A stretch of 64,000 nt of DNA, taken from contig JAHLLB010000001.1 in assembly GCA_020444425.1 (NCBI GenBank), positions 266,938 to 330,937 of the forward strand, read 5' to 3'. Source of the DNA: a bacterium. Lineage in GTDB: Bacteria > Electryoneota > Electryoneia > Electryoneales > Electryoneaceae. The position numbers and the translations under genes were made by a program. Shown here one piece after another: positions 4,866 to 17,953 of the stretch (its first letter is position 1; each line of letters begins with the position of its first letter). Under the pieces are notes generated by a model that was not told the DNA's origin, searched no databases, and saw nothing but the letters and a program-made list of their open reading frames with translations.

Positions 4866-6527
4866 TTACCGCACCAGCATAACCTTCTGCGTGGCGTTCA
4901 GCTTGCCCGGAACGGTCGCACGGACGAAGTACAGGCCGCTCGCCAGGTTGTGCGCGTCGAACGTCAGCTTGTGCTCACCGGCGGTGTAGCGGCCGTTCGC
5001 CAGCTCGGTCACCAGCTGTCCGGTCACGTTGTACACCTGCACCTTGAGATCCGAAGCTTCCGGCAACGCGACGGCCACGGTGGTCGACGGGTTGAACGGG
5101 TTCGGGTACGCGCTTCCGATCGCAAATTCGGTCGGCAGGCTGACGAGCTCGCCGTTGGCATCAGCAGCCAATTCCGCGAAACGATCCGCGCCCGTGGCTG
5201 TCCAGTCTTCCGGGTTGAAGTCAAACTCGGCGTCCGAGGTCGGACCTTCCTTGAGGACATAGAACTGGTCCGTCATCTGGAAGCTCGGGTTGGTGTACGA
5301 TCCGACGTACGCCGTGAACCAGTAGCCACCGCCCGGCGCGAGATCCGGGAAGTACTGGGTCATATCCAGCACCTCAAAGTTGAACATCGCGGGGATGGTG
5401 AAGTTGATCCTGCTGACTGGACCAAACAGCTGGCCGTTCGGGAACAGGATCTCGGTCCAGTACGAACCATTCGGGAACGGCTGCGCGATCTGACCGGTGA
5501 AGTACACGTCATAGACCACATCACCGCCGCCTGCAGGCACCACCGAAGTCTGCGGAATCAGGTTGAAGATGATGCCTTCCGGATCGGTATCCGCGAGCAC
5601 GCCGACATTATCCACACCAGCGTACCAGCCCCAGCTGCCGAGGTCATCGTAGTACCAGCTGAACATGACCGCGTCTGCGCCGAAAACGTCGTCGGTCACA
5701 TCAAACGAGGCGGTCAGGTTGCCACCGGTATCGCCGTCGACGGTGAAGATGACGGTCCAGTTCGCACCGGAATCCAGCGACCACGCTGTTTCCATCATTT
5801 CGGTTTCGTATTCCTGGAAGTAGTACTCATAGCTGAGCACAACCCCGGCGGCGTCGGTGATGTCCACATCCGGCGTCAGCAACCGCTCCATCAGGTGCAC
5901 GCTGCTGCCCGGGTAGTCGGAGTCAACGAGCATGTACGGCGTCGAGAACAAACCACGGGAATTCGGGATCGTGCCATCATCGACCGTCCAGGTGCCCGAC
6001 GCAACCGTCGTTTCCACCGCCCAGTCCGTCGGGAAACCGTCGTCGAAATCTTCCAGCAACGCCCAGTCCGCCGGATCGAACCAGATCATGGTCACCGGGC
6101 CGGCCGGGGTCGATTCACCGTCCGTGTAGTATGCGGTCACTTCGTAGTCGTAGGAACCGTAGTCCGGCAGCAGGTCGAAGTAAGTTTCGTCCGTTGCGGC
6201 ACCGATGAATTCACCTTCACGGTAAACGCGGTATTCGACGAACTCTTCGAGATCGTCCGTGTTGTTCCACTGCTGCATCGCCTGATTCCAGAGACGCGGG
6301 TCGATCCGGAAACGCGGGGTGCGCTTCTGATCGTCAGCCGTGTCGACTTCCGGTTCAAACACATTCTGCTGCAGCACGGCATCCGTGGCGACAGGAGCCG
6401 ACCATGTCAGCGTGACGCCACCGGTATTCTGATCAATTGTTCCGGACAGATTGGTCGGCGGGTTCTGCGCGAACGCAGGCGCGACACACAGTGCCAGCAG
6501 CAACAACCCCAACATCGTTTTTTTCAT
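4866..6527 (-). CDS. T9SS C-terminal-domain secreted protein with Fn3-like N-terminal domain
   Basis: Signal peptide MKKTMLGLLLLALCVAPAFAQ. Fn3-like segment (GVTLTWSAPV...YRVYREGEFIGAATDETYFDLLPDYGSYDYEVTAYY). C-terminus YPNPFNPSTT...[23 protein letters not shown] is a T9SS type A sorting domain. Confidence 0.75.
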   Translation of the reverse strand: MKKTMLGLLLLALCVAPAFAQNPPTNLSGTIDQNTGGVTLTWSAPVATDAVLQQNVFEPEVDTADDQKRTPRFRIDPRLWNQAMQQWNNTDDLEEFVEYRVYREGEFIGAATDETYFDLLPDYGSYDYEVTAYYTDGESTPAGPVTMIWFDPADWALLEDFDDGFPTDWAVETTVASGTWTVDDGTIPNSRGLFSTPYMLVDSDYPGSSVHLMERLLTPDVDITDAAGVVLSYEYYFQEYETEMMETAWSLDSGANWTVIFTVDGDTGGNLTASFDVTDDVFGADAVMFSWYYDDLGSWGWYAGVDNVGVLADTDPEGIIFNLIPQTSVVPAGGGDVVYDVYFTGQIAQPFPNGSYWTEILFPNGQLFGPVSRINFTIPAMFNFEVLDMTQYFPDLAPGGGYWFTAYVGSYTNPSFQMTDQFYVLKEGPTSDAEFDFNPEDWTATGADRFAELAADANGELVSLPTEFAIGSAYPNPFNPSTTVAVALPEASDLKVQVYNVTGQLVTELANGRYTAGEHKLTFDAHNLASGLYFVRATVPGKLNATQKVMLVR

Positions 6528-6740
6528 CCTGTGCTCCCTCCCAGCTTGTCACGGGCGCCATCTGATTGGACAACAGCGGGACCGTGCTATGTCAACGTTA
6601 CATGTGTGTGCGATCTGAATCGGTACGACAACCAGAGGTGAGGACAGAGCTCGCCCCCGTTCATTTCCGACGTGTAAATATACCGCATCTGCAGTGCGAT
6701 AAAAACCTGGAATTCGAATTCTCTGAAATTCTCTCAGTAC

Positions 6741-6768
6741 AAAAGGCCGGGCTCCGAGGCCCGGCCTG
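6741..6768 (-). terminator. Rho-independent terminator for the 6802..8637 gene
   Basis: AAAAGGCCGGGCTCCGAGGCCCGGCC: an 8-bp GC stem preceded by A4 on the plus strand, which is a T-run after the hairpin on the minus strand. Confidence 0.55.
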
Positions 6769-14915: not shown

Positions 14916-14971
14916 ACCCTCGCGCCAACAACCGGCAACCGAAAACCGTTTACCGTTTACCGACCACCGTC

Positions 14972-17953
14972 TCACCTCACCAGCATCAGCTTGCGGACCT
15001 GGTTCAGCTTTCCGGGCACCGTCGCGTTAACGAAGTACAGTCCGCTGGCGAACGGGGACGCGTCCCATGTGAACGCATGCAGTCCAGCTTCTCGCTGCCC
15101 ATGCGCCAACTCCACCACCTGCTGCCCGGCGATGTTGTACACCGTCAGGCTCAACTCAGACGCTTCCGGCAGGGAAACACTCAGCCGGGTGGTGGCGTTG
15201 AACGGGTTCGGGTAGGCCGAGCTGAGCGCATATTCACGGGGTAGCGTTTCGTCCGTGGCAATTTGCCTCTCGTCACCCTGAGTGACGGCGGAAAGCAGCG
15301 TTGCGCCGTTGCTGGCCCAGTCGTTGGCCCCGGCGGCATCCGTCCCGGTAGCGACGACGGTAAACGGGAAACTGTCCCACGCGACCGCGTTCTGCAGGTT
15401 CGGGCCGGCCTTGAAGTGCCACAGGTAGTCGCCGAGTGGCGCAAACATCGGTATCTCCTGCTGGATGCCGTCCACCGCGATGTTCAACCCCGGCGCAAAG
15501 AGGAACTGGACGCTGAACACGGGCCCGTACGACTGGCCATTCGGAAGCGTCGCCGTGGTCCAGACATAGCCGAACGCGGGTGCGGCGGTGTTAACGGTCA
15601 TCAGCAGGTCGTAGCTGAACATGCCGCCGCGCGGGACTTCCAGGCCGTAAGCTGACGGTGTCAAGTCAATCTCAATCGGTCCCGGTCCGTTGGGCGAACC
15701 GGACTGCAACCAGACCATGATCTGGTCGGCGTCGTACGCGGCGGCGGCAAGGTCGAGGTCGCCATCCACGTCCAGATCCGCAACATGCACGCACTGTGCT
15801 CCTCCGAACGACGACTCCACCCGATGCCGTACCCACTCAATGCCGAGAATTCCCGGCTGGTTTTCCCACCACGTCACGTCGTCCGCCAACATCGCCGTTC
15901 CGACCAGATCGAGGTCGCCATCGGCATCCACATCGGCAGCGAGTACGCTGGTGGCACCGTCGAAACTGTCATCGACCGTTTGCGCGATCCATGTGGAGCC
16001 GGTCCCGTCCACGTTTGCCCACCAGCGAATCTGGTCATCGCCGAATAACGCCGCGACGATGTCGTTGTCGCCGTCTCCGTCGATGTCGTCCGCGTAGACC
16101 GCGTACGCTCCATCCGCGCCGGTTTCGACCGTTTGACGGGTCCAGTTAAAGCCGTTTCCGTTGATGTTGTTCCACCATGTGATCTCGTTTTCGCCGTATG
16201 ACGCGGTGACCATGTCCTGGTCGCCATCACCGTCGATGTCTGCCGCGTACGCACCGCGCGGCGAGCCGTAGGACTCGGCGACGGTGTGACGGTCCCAAGA
16301 CAGCCCGTCGCCGTCCTCGTTCTCCCACCAGACGACTTCGTGGTCGTTGAAACTTGTCGCGTATACGTCTGTGTCGCCGTCGTCATCCATGTCCTGACCA
16401 CGGACAAAGATCGCGCCAAAGAAATCAGCTGAGATCATGTGTTCGGTCCATCCGCCGCCGGACCCGTCGTTTTCCCACCACGTGACATCATTGGCCACGA
16501 ATGCGGCGCCGAGCACATCCATGTCGCCGTCGCCATCGACATCTGCTGCTGAGACATCGCGGGCGCCGTTAAACGCAGACACTACCGTGTGTTCCGCCCA
16601 GACTGTGGCGTCACCATTCAGGTTTTCCAGCCAGACGATGCTGTCTTCGATGTAGCTGGACGCCAGCATGTCCTGATCGCCGTCGCCGTCCAGATCCGCG
16701 CTCCACACGCCCGACGCTGCGACATAGTCCTCGACAAGAAGTTGCGGCGCGTCCCACTGAACGGGTTCTTCACCCTGGATCAGCGGATAGATCTCACGGA
16801 TGGCGTATTGTTCGTTGGGATCGTCGCTGCCGGGAATAGCATCCAGCGCAAACCAGGCGTTGTTTGATCCACCCCAACCGTAATTGAAGTGGATGTAGTT
16901 CGTGGTGATTTCGACCCGCCAGCCGTCGCTGACAATGGCGTGCCCCTCGATACGGTAGATCAGCGGGCGTTCATGGTTCATTTCCTCCTGCAGCATCATG
17001 AACCAGTCGTTGGTGTCCGGGTAATTTGACCGGTATTGCACATTTGCGCTTTCACTGTAGCGGAAATAGGTTGGCAGCACCCAAGCGGCGTCTGCCGTGT
17101 GCGCGCCAGACCCGTTGATACCGTAATTCATCTCAAACGCGACACCGACTTCGTAACAGACCTCCGCGACGGCGTTGCTCTGCTCAGATGTATGCGTGCC
17201 GTTGTAGTTGTCGAGTACGTTCGCCCAGTCGTACTCGTCGCTGTAGTCGGCGTACAGCGTGATGTTGTTCCAGTTGTAGCTGTGTTCCCCCTCCCCGTAC
17301 GGCGGCCAGTCCCAGAAATTCATCACCTGCGCGGTCGCGGTCGCGACACAGCCGACGAGGCAATTCTCGTTGTTGATCACCGGGCAGTAGTTGCTGTACG
17401 GCTCGCTCTGGTGCCACGCAGAGGTCAGCATCGCGGTGCCGGGGGTGTAGTCGTCCAGCTGGTTCAGGGTGAGCTCGGTCAGGAAGGTTTGCGTGTCGGG
17501 TGTGGTGAATACATCCCACAGGTCAGCGTTGTGCGCAATCTCGGCGATGTCGATGCCGTCCGCCGCCATGTCGTCGAGGGTGCTGAAGCGGGCGAGCGTT
17601 TCGGCCTTGCCGGCGAGCACACCTTGCAGCAACGCGCCGAAACTCTCCGGGTGGTCGAAGCTGATTCGGCCTTGTTCGGCGTACGCCTTGACCGGCGGCA
17701 ATTCACGGAACGCCGGGACAAGCAGGTAGCCGTCCGGTGCGACCTCGAAGTAGTACCCGATCACCTCGTCGTTCTCGACCAGGGTTCGTTTCAGGTCGAT
17801 GGTCGCAGTTGCGGCACCGTCCCACGCATTGACCGACGCTTTGAACGCAATGAAATTCTCCGCGACGAGAGTGGCTTGTTGCTGATCGATGTTGCCCGCG
17901 AACGCGGATACCGTTACTAGACAGATCCCCAGGATGACGAGAGCGGTGCGCAT
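14972..17953 (-). CDS. Peptidase C10 (streptopain-like) paralog with propeptide-like domain, FG-GAP repeats and T9SS C-terminal sorting domain
   Basis: ORF 14972..18406. The likely start is ATG at 17953 ([34 protein letters not shown]). Same architecture as 11534..14545 ([18 protein letters not shown] Cys box; [10 protein letters not shown] His box; multiple DxDGDGD repeats). C-terminal [23 protein letters not shown]. Confidence 0.8.

What the first reader, a model, noticed from the sequence alone, without database searches (positions are those of the whole stretch)
4866..17953. Five-gene island of T9SS cargo proteins with nucleotide-level conserved C-terminal-domain cassettes
Five consecutive minus-strand genes encode secreted proteins: one Fn3-like, two FG-GAP and two C10 peptidases. 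Each ends in a ~90-aa T9SS type A sorting domain (YPNPFN...GLYFVRA...K(L/V)MLVR). The CTD-coding 230-bp segments are about 75-90% identical at the DNA level (for example 9140-9370 versus 11545-11770 and 14985-15215), while the upstream passenger domains are much more diverged. Repeated homologous 3' cassettes in tandemly arranged genes are an obvious substrate for gene conversion and domain shuffling among cargo proteins. Together with the FG-GAP propellers this looks like a diversifying surface-adhesin/protease locus.
Basis: partly seen in the sequence, partly recalled or inferred. Interest (0 to 1): 0.55.

Follow-up and report, generated by a model that had tools for sequence, protein, structure and literature searches.

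The report
Secreted-protein gene island reshuffled at shared tails
Five neighbouring genes for secreted proteases and adhesin-like proteins all end in the same ~80-residue export tag, and comparison with a sister genome shows that the DNA for this tag has served as the crossover point for deleting whole genes and for copying sequence between neighbours; the locus is otherwise an ordinary member of a known secretion-cargo class.

Summary
The five minus-strand genes are real. Each has a signal peptide and a T9SS type A C-terminal domain (CTD) above curated cut-offs. Both C10 peptidases also carry FG-GAP propellers.

CTD cassettes in the window are 64-82% identical, not 75-90%. Synonymous sites are near saturation. 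Only g3-g4 and g3-g5 share more codons than codon usage predicts.

The recombination idea still holds when the window is compared with a sister genome (4.54 Mb MAG, roughly 84-92% nucleotide identity across this locus). The sister has nine cargo genes where the window has five. Both indels (2,556 and 6,576 nt, measured stop codon to stop codon) have both ends inside CTDs, which leaves recombinant CTDs in g4 and g2.

The g3 orthologues differ at 4.6% of sites, but at 28% within a 106-nt CTD tract. In that tract the sister copy is 96% identical to its neighbouring paralogue, which indicates gene conversion. In related loci, adjacent cargo genes whose passengers do not align at nucleotide level share CTD cassettes at 94-98% identity.

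Orthologue dN/dS is 0.06-0.25, so nothing points to diversifying selection. No T9SS machinery gene lies in the window, and the rest of the genome could not be searched.

Verdict: a known kind of locus with a modestly interesting, well-supported evolutionary mechanism.

The parts
4866..6527 (-). g1: 553-aa secreted protein. It has a signal peptide, beta-sandwich modules (FnIII-like, MAM-like and Ig-like by fold) and a T9SS type A CTD.
   Evidence: ORF. PF18962 scores 42.5 bits and TIGR04183 43 bits. The AlphaFold model has pLDDT 71 and its fold matches are FnIII, RbmA and MAM-Ig. The orthologue in the sister genome (L079 10001-11662) falls in the same 90% cluster.
4866..5120 (-). CTD cassette of g1, of the 'KVMLVR' type.
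   Evidence: Repeat family D1. It is 87% identical at nucleotide level to its orthologue, 82% to the sister A2 CTD and 76-77% to g2.
6802..8637 (-). g2: 611-aa FG-GAP beta-propeller protein with a signal peptide, a pre-CTD Ig-like module and a CTD.
   Evidence: PF13517 scores 101.5 bits over 6 stretches; PF18962 scores 37.2 bits. It is 96-97% identical at amino-acid level to the sister A2n.
6802..7056 (-). Recombinant CTD cassette of g2. The 5' part is like the sister A2 CTD. The 3' part and the downstream flank are like the sister Ax CTD. The crossover lies at about 6871-6895.
   Evidence: Two collinear BLAST blocks overlap exactly here. Within the CTD, informative sites read 33:4 (A2-like:Ax-like) on the 5' side and 2:6 on the 3' side, Fisher p 6e-4. 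An independent Logan contig covers 4692-7044 at 99.9%.
9126..11471 (-). g3: 781-aa FG-GAP propeller protein with two Fn3-like modules, a g1-like module and a CTD.
   Evidence: PF13517 scores 88.4 bits and PF18962 39.3 bits; an RGI_lyase beta-sheet (Fn3-like) hit is sub-threshold. It is 96.7% identical at amino-acid level to the sister A3b.
9150..9255 (-). The part of the g3 CTD that corresponds to a gene-conversion tract in the sister orthologue A3b.
   Evidence: 30 of the 133 g3-A3b differences fall in these 106 nt: 28% against 4.6% elsewhere, Fisher p 1e-14, and 0 of 300 permutations reach the observed score. In the tract A3b is 102/106 identical to its neighbour A3a.
11534..14545 (-). g4: 1003-aa C10 (streptopain-family) cysteine peptidase with an I69-like N-terminal region, an FG-GAP propeller, an Ig-like module and a CTD.
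   Evidence: PF01640 scores 151.6 bits and PF13517 133.8 bits. It matches streptopain and interpain A structures at E 1e-23, with Cys47 and His195 aligned. It is 85% identical at amino-acid level to the sister A4.
11534..11788 (-). Recombinant or mosaic CTD cassette of g4. The passenger and the 5' part of the CTD are like sister A4. The last ~70 nt and the flank are like sister A3a. The best breakpoint is 11603-11606.
   Evidence: Collinear blocks overlap at 11586-11779. Within the CTD, informative sites read 20:13 on the 5' side and 3:13 on the 3' side, p 0.007. Only g4 and A3a share the ending GTC AGA TA.
14972..17953 (-). g5: 993-aa C10 peptidase with an FG-GAP propeller and a CTD. It is a full-length paralogue of g4 (50% amino-acid identity).
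   Evidence: PF01640 scores 178.1 bits, PF13517 110.2 bits, PF18962 31.9 bits and Inhibitor_I69 24.9 bits. It is 83.5% identical to the sister A5.
14972..15226 (-). CTD cassette of g5, of the 'KLMLVR' type.
   Evidence: Family D1. Its nearest CTD is that of its orthologue A5, at 82%.
6744..6767 (-). Terminator-like hairpin downstream of g2. It is shared with the flank of sister gene Ax.
   Evidence: 9-bp stem with 8 GC pairs followed by a T run. The same hairpin follows the Ax stop codon (alignment).
4773..4799 (-). Terminator-like hairpin downstream of g1.
   Evidence: 11-bp stem followed by a T run.

Best explanation
This is a chromosomal island of five type IX secretion (T9SS) cargo genes in an uncultured FCB-group-like bacterium: two streptopain-family (C10) cysteine peptidases fused to FG-GAP propellers, two FG-GAP propeller proteins, and one protein made of a string of beta-sandwich modules.

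INFERRED FROM FAMILY KNOWLEDGE. Each product is exported by Sec through its signal peptide. It is then recognised through its ~80-residue type A CTD, passed through the T9SS translocon, and has the CTD removed.

SHOWN HERE. The ~250-nt CTD-coding cassettes are dispersed direct repeats at which homologous recombination has repeatedly acted.
(1) Relative to a sister genome with nine cargo genes at this site, the window has lost (or the sister has gained) one gene (2,556 nt) and three genes (6,576 nt). Both events run between one CTD and another, and they leave hybrid CTDs on g4 and g2.
(2) Short gene-conversion tracts homogenise the CTDs of neighbouring genes. The sister pair A3a to A3b is clear, the sister pair A0/Ax shows a 132-nt identical run, and adjacent genes elsewhere in related genomes share cassettes at 94-98% identity.

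The passengers themselves evolve under purifying selection. The island therefore varies by gain and loss of whole cargo genes at a fixed chromosomal site, not by fast amino-acid change.
For: DOMAIN CALLS. All five CTDs pass PF18962 and TIGR04183, and the C10 and FG-GAP domains are called. The catalytic Cys47 and His195 of streptopain align in g4. Signal peptides are readable.

SYNTENY. The sister locus L001/L003/L079 is syntenic with conserved flanks: the carboxyltransferase/OAD operon on one side and TPR-lpxL-ffh on the other.

INDELS. The collinear BLAST blocks overlap only inside the g4 CTD (11586-11779) and the g2 CTD (6802-7047). Informative sites switch parent within the CTDs.

GENE CONVERSION. 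In g3 versus A3b, 30 of 133 differences fall in 106 nt (p 1e-14, 0 of 300 permutations), and there A3b is 96% identical to A3a. Identical runs reach 132 nt (A0-Ax) and 72 nt (A3a-A3b), against 15-32 nt inside the window. A0 and Ax are alignable at nucleotide level only in the CTD.

GENERALITY. Adjacent cargo genes in L080 and L007 share 242-252-nt cassettes at 98% and 94%, while their passengers do not align at nucleotide level. Across seven loci, adjacent CTD pairs are more similar than non-adjacent ones (median 0.71 against 0.66, one-sided p 0.04).

ASSEMBLY. The junction from the g2 CTD into g1 is reproduced at 99.9% in a separate Logan assembly contig seen in 6 samples.

SAME SITE, DIFFERENT CARGO. 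A more distant genome carries different CTD-bearing genes at the same chromosomal position.
Against: - Inside the window the cassettes are only 64-82% identical with dS 0.67-1.3. Eight of ten pairs are no more similar in codon choice than expected. Recombination among the present five copies is therefore not recent, and the longest identical runs (15-32 nt) are marginal substrates.
- The g4 breakpoint is mosaic. It rests partly on sites where sister gene A4 is simply divergent.
- The breakpoint p-values are post hoc.
- The direction of each indel (deletion here or insertion in the sister) is inferred, not shown, because no suitable outgroup with the same genes was found.
- Both genomes are metagenome assemblies, and the g4-g3 junction could not be checked in a second assembly.
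- No T9SS machinery gene was seen.
Confidence: 0.72

Rival explanations
1. Null model. The CTD cassettes resemble each other at the DNA level only because the protein domain is constrained and codon usage is biased. On this view they play no part in recombination, and the island is a static set of old paralogues.
For: Within the window dS between CTDs is 0.67-1.3. Codon identity at conserved residues is within about 2 sd of expectation for 8 of 10 pairs. The longest identical runs are 15-32 nt.
Against: The orthologue comparison shows a 106-nt tract with six-fold excess divergence that matches the neighbouring paralogue at 96%. Both indels end in CTDs. Adjacent genes in related loci whose passengers do not align at nucleotide level share cassettes at 94-98%. 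g3-g4 gives z 3.8.
Confidence: 0.08
2. Assembly artefact. The apparent deletions in the window, or the near-identical tracts in the sister, arise from metagenome assemblers collapsing or mis-joining at the repeated CTD sequence.
For: Both genomes are MAGs. The breakpoints sit in repeats, which is where mis-joins occur. The sister genes A2 and A0 are split, A2 by a single-base indel, which hints at consensus errors. The g4-g3 junction could not be verified independently.
Against: A Logan contig from SRR14069905, present in 6 samples, reproduces window 4692-7044, including the whole hybrid g2 CTD, at 99.9%. The hybrid CTDs differ from both 'parents' by 10-20%, as expected for old events between species and not for a chimera of two copies in one sample. 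The identical runs within the window are too short (32 nt or less) for collapse at the usual final k-mer sizes.
Confidence: 0.1
3. Tandem duplication followed by divergence only. Neighbouring genes have similar CTDs because they are recent duplicates whose passengers diverged or were replaced faster. No gene conversion or CTD-to-CTD crossover is needed.
For: g4 and g5 are full-length paralogues (50% amino-acid identity). A3a and A3b are paralogues (43%). Two CTD subtypes (KLMLVR and KVMLVR) occupy the two halves of the island.
Against: g4's CTD is closer to that of g3, which has no C10 domain, than to that of its full-length paralogue g5 (82% against 71%). The orthologues g3 and A3b are 95-100% identical on both sides of a tract that is 72% identical; duplication and divergence cannot produce that. 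The passengers of the 98%-identical pair in L080 share 32% amino-acid identity or less.
Confidence: 0.1

Closest known systems
KLIKK protease loci of Tannerella forsythia (karilysin, mirolysin, forsilysin, mirolase, miropsin-1 and -2; PMC4404884)
   Same: Clustered T9SS cargo genes encode proteases of different families that share one CTD subtype with a characteristic C-terminal motif: KLIKK there, K(L/V)MLVR here. The whole array is present or absent between close relatives.
   Different: KLIKK CTDs are described as nearly identical. Here the window's CTDs are 60-86% identical at amino-acid level and 64-82% at nucleotide level. Near-identity (94-98% nucleotide) is seen only in related loci. 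The members here are C10 and FG-GAP proteins in a non-Bacteroidota-like, 58% GC uncultured lineage. No potempin-like inhibitor genes were noticed. That paper does not mention recombination or duplication.
Gingipain and adhesin (RgpA/Kgp/HagA) domain rearrangement and allelic exchange in Porphyromonas gingivalis (PMC5266723)
   Same: T9SS cargo virulence genes diversify by homologous recombination among repeated modules, and gene conversion is invoked for surface proteins.
   Different: There the recombining modules are adhesin domains (CAD, DUF2436) and whole alleles. The CTD is described only as conserved. Here the CTD cassette itself is the crossover and conversion site, and the outcome is loss or gain of whole genes.
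Streptopain-family (C10) T9SS cargo: PrtT and periodontain of P. gingivalis, interpain A of Prevotella intermedia
   Same: They have a C10 catalytic domain with a Cys-His dyad and an N-terminal pro-region, and PrtT and periodontain have a C-terminal T9SS CTD (PMC5266723).
   Different: g4 and g5 insert an FG-GAP propeller with several 51-residue blades and an Ig-like module between the protease and the CTD. They are about 30% identical or less to the solved enzymes.
Generic repeat-mediated deletion and ectopic gene conversion among paralogous cassettes, as in bacterial surface-protein gene families (my own background knowledge; no paper consulted)
   Same: The hallmarks match: indels whose length equals the repeat spacing, hybrid repeats at the junction, and short conversion tracts with sharp edges.
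   Different: No silent-cassette store or dedicated recombinase is present. The repeat is a secretion signal domain, not the antigenic part, so the variable parts are exchanged or lost as whole genes.

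Membership tests
T9SS type A CTD cargo (TIGR04183 / PF18962) | The profile match exceeds the curated cut-off and lies at the extreme C-terminus. | tested here: met
   All five genes score 38-43 bits on TIGR04183 (cut-off 23) and 31.9-44.7 bits on PF18962 (cut-off 27), ending within a few residues of the stop codon.
T9SS type A CTD cargo (TIGR04183 / PF18962) | An N-terminal Sec signal peptide is present. 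| tested here: met
   This was read directly from the translations, with no predictor available. Each protein has a basic N-terminus, a hydrophobic core and small residues, e.g. MKKTMLGLLLLALCVAPAFA|Q and MRRILFISASLLILVFSSSFA|G.
T9SS type A CTD cargo (TIGR04183 / PF18962) | The CTD adopts a beta-sandwich fold. | tested here: met
   In the g1 model, residues 469-551 form seven strands with pLDDT mostly 84-96. This was tested for g1 only.
T9SS type A CTD cargo (TIGR04183 / PF18962) | T9SS machinery (sprA, porV, porU, gldK/L/M/N) is encoded in the same genome. | not testable with these tools
   None was found among 40 window ORFs scanned against Pfam or NCBIfam.
T9SS type A CTD cargo (TIGR04183 / PF18962) | Secretion and CTD cleavage depend on the T9SS. 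| not testable with these tools
   This needs an experiment.
Peptidase C10 (streptopain family) | The sequence matches the full-length catalytic-domain profile. | tested here: met
   PF01640 matches positions 1-194 of 194 at 151.6 bits (g4) and 178.1 bits (g5). Streptopain and interpain A chains match at E 1e-17 to 1e-23.
Peptidase C10 (streptopain family) | The catalytic Cys-His dyad is present. | tested here: met
   In g4, GCAATA aligns to streptopain Cys47 and TGHAIV to His195. g5 has the same motifs, GCVATA and GHAIV.
Peptidase C10 (streptopain family) | An N-terminal inhibitory pro-domain (Inhibitor_I69-like) is present. | tested here: inconclusive
   PF13734 scores 24.9 bits (g5) and 19.9 bits (g4) against a cut-off of 25.
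FG-GAP / VCBS beta-propeller proteins | Multiple FG-GAP repeats are present. | tested here: met
   PF13517 gives 4-6 stretches at 88-134 bits in g2-g5. A 153-nt periodic DNA repeat is present in g4 and g5 (families D2, D6, D8).
KLIKK-type cargo array (near-identical CTD shared by clustered cargo genes) | The CTDs of array members are nearly identical. | tested here: not met
   The window CTDs are 60-86% identical at amino-acid level and 64-82% at nucleotide level. The feature is met only by adjacent pairs in related genomes, at 94-98% nucleotide identity.
Ectopic gene conversion / repeat-mediated recombination | Differences between orthologues cluster in a tract that matches a paralogue. | tested here: met
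   30/106 differences inside the tract against 103/2243 outside, p 1e-14, with 0 of 300 permutations reaching the score. Within the tract A3b is identical to A3a at 102 of 106 positions.
Ectopic gene conversion / repeat-mediated recombination | Indel endpoints lie in direct repeats, indel length equals repeat spacing, and the repeat at the junction is a hybrid. | tested here: met
   The indels are 2,556 and 6,576 nt from stop codon to stop codon. The collinear blocks overlap only in the CTDs. Informative sites switch parent inside the CTD. The g4 case is weaker than the g2 case.

The most novel reading that the evidence does not exclude
In this FCB-group lineage the CTD-coding cassette may be more than a secretion tag. 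It may act as a general recombination handle. Gene conversion between neighbours would keep it homogeneous, and whole secreted-protein genes could then be deleted, inserted or moved between cargo islands and between strains without any dedicated recombinase. The T9SS secretome would then behave like a cassette array at fixed chromosomal hot spots.
Probability: 0.25. Interest if true: 0.6.

Novelty: new member of a known kind. Interest (0 to 1): 0.38.

Why it matters
T9SS cargo repertoires differ greatly between related bacteria, and how they turn over is seldom documented. Here a simple comparison gives base-level evidence that the shared export tag is itself the site of gene loss or gain and of sequence homogenisation. 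This offers a concrete, testable route for secretome remodelling in poorly known uncultured FCB-group lineages.

It also carries a practical warning. CTD repeats are likely break or collapse points in metagenome assemblies, so cargo gene counts in MAGs may be unreliable.

The proteins themselves (C10 peptidase fused to an FG-GAP propeller and a CTD) are new combinations of known modules, not a new system.

Tried and rejected
1. Exact-protein look-ups of g4 and g3, meant to verify the g4-g3 junction in another assembly, found nothing on record.
2. T9SS core genes were sought in the window by Pfam and NCBIfam scans of 40 ORFs. None was found.
3. A test for positive or diversifying selection by Nei-Gojobori dN/dS on orthologue pairs gave 0.25 or less everywhere. 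That reading was rejected at whole-gene level.
4. Further conversion tracts were sought in g1, g2, g4 and g5 against their orthologues. None appeared in the CTDs. The only significant cluster is the hypervariable linker of g4 at 11804-11889.
5. The JGI 4.09-Mb genome was tried as an outgroup for indel polarity. The same chromosomal site holds different cargo genes, so polarity could not be settled.
6. An Rfam scan of the window gave no hits. Folding of the tandem-repeat unit at 4073-4307 was no better than shuffles.
7. Literature searches for CTD-mediated recombination or concerted evolution in the T9SS, and for T9SS in Fermentibacteria, found nothing directly relevant beyond PMC5266723 and PMC4404884.
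8. Taxonomy could not be fixed. The nearest records are unnamed 'bacterium' MAGs. More distant cargo homologues come from Ca. Aegiribacteria, Fermentibacteria, Sabulitectum and Calditrichota MAGs.

Full report
**1. What is at the coordinates.**

The region 4866-17953 holds five consecutive minus-strand ORFs:
- g1, 4866-6527, 553 aa
- g2, 6802-8637, 611 aa from the MKKV start
- g3, 9126-11471, 781 aa
- g4, 11534-14545, 1003 aa
- g5, 14972-17953, 993 aa

Each begins with a readable Sec-type signal peptide. Each ends in a domain that passes the curated thresholds of PF18962 (31.9-44.7 bits against 27) and TIGR04183 (38-43 bits against 23). An HMM built from the five tails finds only these five in all six frames of the window.

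- g4 and g5 are streptopain-family C10 peptidases (PF01640, 152 and 178 bits). In g4 the catalytic Cys47 and His195 of streptopain align, and g5 has the same motifs.
- Both also carry a multi-blade FG-GAP propeller, so four of the five genes have FG-GAP repeats, not two.
- g1 has no Pfam hit apart from the CTD. A moderate model (pLDDT 71) is a chain of beta-sandwich modules resembling FnIII arrays, RbmA and MAM-Ig.

**2. The nucleotide claim.**

A 251-nt direct-repeat family marks the five 3' ends. Identity is 64-82%, not 75-90%. Only g3-g4 (82%) and g1-g2 (77%) exceed 75%.

Synonymous divergence between the CTDs is high (dS 0.67-1.3). At residues that are identical between two CTDs, the number of identical codons exceeds the codon-usage expectation clearly only for g3-g4 (z 3.8) and g3-g5 (z 3.1). 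The other eight pairs lie between z 0.3 and 2.3. The longest perfectly identical runs are 15-32 nt.

Taken alone, then, the window gives only weak evidence that the cassettes are conserved beyond what the protein requires. The passengers are indeed far more diverged: 27-37% amino-acid identity in forced global alignments, and 50% for the full-length paralogues g4 and g5.

**3. Comparison with a sister genome.**

A protein search found an 84%-identical orthologue of g4 on a 4.54-Mb contig, CAXXKJ010000002.1, an unnamed 'bacterium' MAG. The locus is syntenic. It has the carboxyltransferase / OAD-gamma / biotin carrier / OAD-beta operon on one side and TPR-lpxL-pfkB-ffh-rpsP on the other.

The sister island has nine cargo genes:
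- A5, A4, A3b and A2 (split in two), the orthologues of g5, g4, g3 and g2
- G1s, the g1 orthologue
- four further genes absent from the window: A3a, A1, A0 (also split) and Ax

Flanking housekeeping genes are 98-99% identical at amino-acid level with dS about 0.4.

**4. Both indels end in CTDs.**

BLAST gives two long collinear blocks on each side of each indel. The blocks overlap only within a CTD.
- Window 11586-24560 pairs with A4 and the sequence beyond it. Window 6802-11779 pairs with A2 through to the A3a CTD. The overlap, 11586-11779, is the g4 CTD.
- Window 6802-9957 pairs with A2 and A3b. Window 4769-7047 pairs with G1s through to the Ax CTD. The overlap, 6802-7047, is the g2 CTD.

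The missing segments measure 2,556 nt (A4 stop to A3a stop) and 6,576 nt (A2 stop to Ax stop), which equals the repeat spacing.

Three-way alignments show that g2 follows A2 through the passenger and the 5' two-thirds of the CTD. It then follows Ax for the last ~70 nt and the whole downstream flank, including a shared terminator hairpin. Within the CTD alone, informative sites read 33:4 and then 2:6 (p 6e-4).

g4 behaves the same way but less cleanly. The passenger is A4-like, the middle of the CTD is mosaic, and the last ~70 nt are A3a-like (3:13 against 20:13 upstream, p 0.007). The ending GTC-AGA-TA is shared only with A3a. These p-values are post hoc.

The simplest reading is unequal homologous crossover between CTD cassettes, deleting the intervening genes in the window lineage. 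The extra sister genes are not recent duplicates: A3a is 43% identical to A3b, and A1 is 37% identical to g1. Insertion through a single crossover with a circular intermediate would leave the same footprint. Polarity is therefore inferred.

**5. Gene conversion.**

The orthologues g3 and A3b differ at 133 of 2,349 sites. Thirty of these fall in one 106-nt tract inside the CTD (window 9150-9255). That is 28% against 4.6% elsewhere (Fisher p 1e-14), and no permutation out of 300 approaches the observed likelihood ratio. In that tract A3b matches its upstream neighbour A3a at 102 of 106 positions, while their passengers are 43% identical.

The sister genes A0 and Ax share a 132-nt perfect run in the CTD, although their nucleotide similarity is confined to the CTD.

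**6. Generality.**

In other loci of the sister genome and in a more distant 4.09-Mb genome, adjacent cargo genes share CTD cassettes of 242-252 nt at 98% and 94% identity. Their passengers do not align at nucleotide level, and outside the C-terminal region protein identity is at most about 32%.

Across seven loci, adjacent CTD pairs are somewhat more similar than non-adjacent ones (median 0.71 against 0.66, one-sided p 0.04), and the four highest values all belong to adjacent pairs.

The distant genome has a cargo island at the same chromosomal site, next to the TPR gene, but with different passengers: Kelch, 3-keto-disaccharide-hydrolase-like and FG-GAP. The site is thus a conserved hot spot with changing content.

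**7. Selection.**

Orthologue dN/dS is 0.06-0.25 for all passengers and CTDs. 'Diversifying' therefore applies only to gene content.

dS is uneven along the locus: 0.16 for g3, about 0.4 for the flanks, and 0.6-0.9 for g4 and g5. This may reflect allelic recombination, but it was not pursued.

**8. Artefact check.**

A Logan contig assembled separately (SRR14069905, seen in 6 samples) matches window 4692-7044 at 99.9%. It covers the whole hybrid g2 CTD, the intergenic region and g1.

The g4-g3 junction could not be checked in this way. The hybrid CTDs differ from both sister 'parents' by 10-20%, which fits old events and not chimeric joins.

**9. What remains open.**

No T9SS machinery gene lies in the window, and I could not search the rest of the genome. 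The secretion route therefore rests on homology of the CTD.

Taxonomy is unresolved. The closest named relatives of the cargo proteins are MAGs of Ca. Aegiribacteria, Fermentibacteria, Sabulitectum and Calditrichota.

**10. Comparison with known systems.**

The closest analogue is the KLIKK protease arrays of Tannerella forsythia. These are clustered T9SS proteases of different families with one shared CTD subtype, absent from a close relative (PMC4404884). That paper does not mention recombination.

P. gingivalis gingipains diversify by rearrangement of adhesin modules, with the CTD merely noted as conserved (PMC5266723).

I found no paper describing CTD-mediated deletion or conversion. The mechanism is nonetheless ordinary repeat-mediated recombination.

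Noticed in passing
window 3864-4760: A tandem array lies just downstream of g1. It has about four units of 208-235 nt (or 2 x 443 nt at 97%), each starting with the hairpin GATGTCCCCCGCGCAGGAAAGGGGACATGTG. The roughly 900-nt block is absent at this position in the sister genome and in all fetched loci. There is no Rfam hit, and the units fold no better than shuffles.
   Followed up: partly
window 14733-14915 (between the g5 stop and the g4 start); also L009 189-213: A short repeat, GTCATCCTGAACGAAGTGAAGGATC, occurs in two exact direct copies plus degenerate copies in both orientations. One exact copy lies in another locus of the sister genome. It looks like a REP-like dispersed intergenic element.
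   Followed up: partly
window 11804-11889: The linker just upstream of the g4 CTD is hypervariable between orthologues: 52% divergence against 16% for the gene, with a likelihood ratio of 31 against a permutation maximum of 8.6.
   Followed up: partly
window 9126-23552 compared with L003: Synonymous divergence from the sister genome is very uneven along the locus: g3 0.16; g2, carboxyltransferase and OAD-beta 0.37-0.42; g4 0.60; g5 0.93; the unknown 432-aa gene at 21041-22339 1.34. This suggests a mosaic of recombined alleles.
   Followed up: no
L003 18465-20299 and L079 5709-7027: In the sister genome the g2 orthologue is split by a single-base indel into 385-aa and 136-aa ORFs. A0 is also split, into 92-aa and 350-aa ORFs. 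These are either real pseudogenes or consensus errors in a long-read assembly.
   Followed up: no
window 40266-44039 (minus strand): A 1257-aa protein combines a Peptidase_MA_2 domain, TolB/PD40 propeller repeats and a C-terminal region with weak BamA/TamL (Omp85-like barrel) matches. This is an unusual fusion.
   Followed up: no
window 17889-23552: An operon resembling a Na+-translocating decarboxylase lies next to the island: carboxyltransferase, OAD gamma, biotin carrier, an unknown 432-aa protein and OAD beta. Its order is conserved in the sister genome.
   Followed up: no
L080 12067-21974: A more distant 4.09-Mb genome has a different set of CTD-bearing genes (Kelch, 3-keto-disaccharide-hydrolase-like, FG-GAP) at the same chromosomal position next to the TPR/lpxL/ffh block. 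Two adjacent CTD cassettes there are 98% identical over 242 nt.
   Followed up: partly
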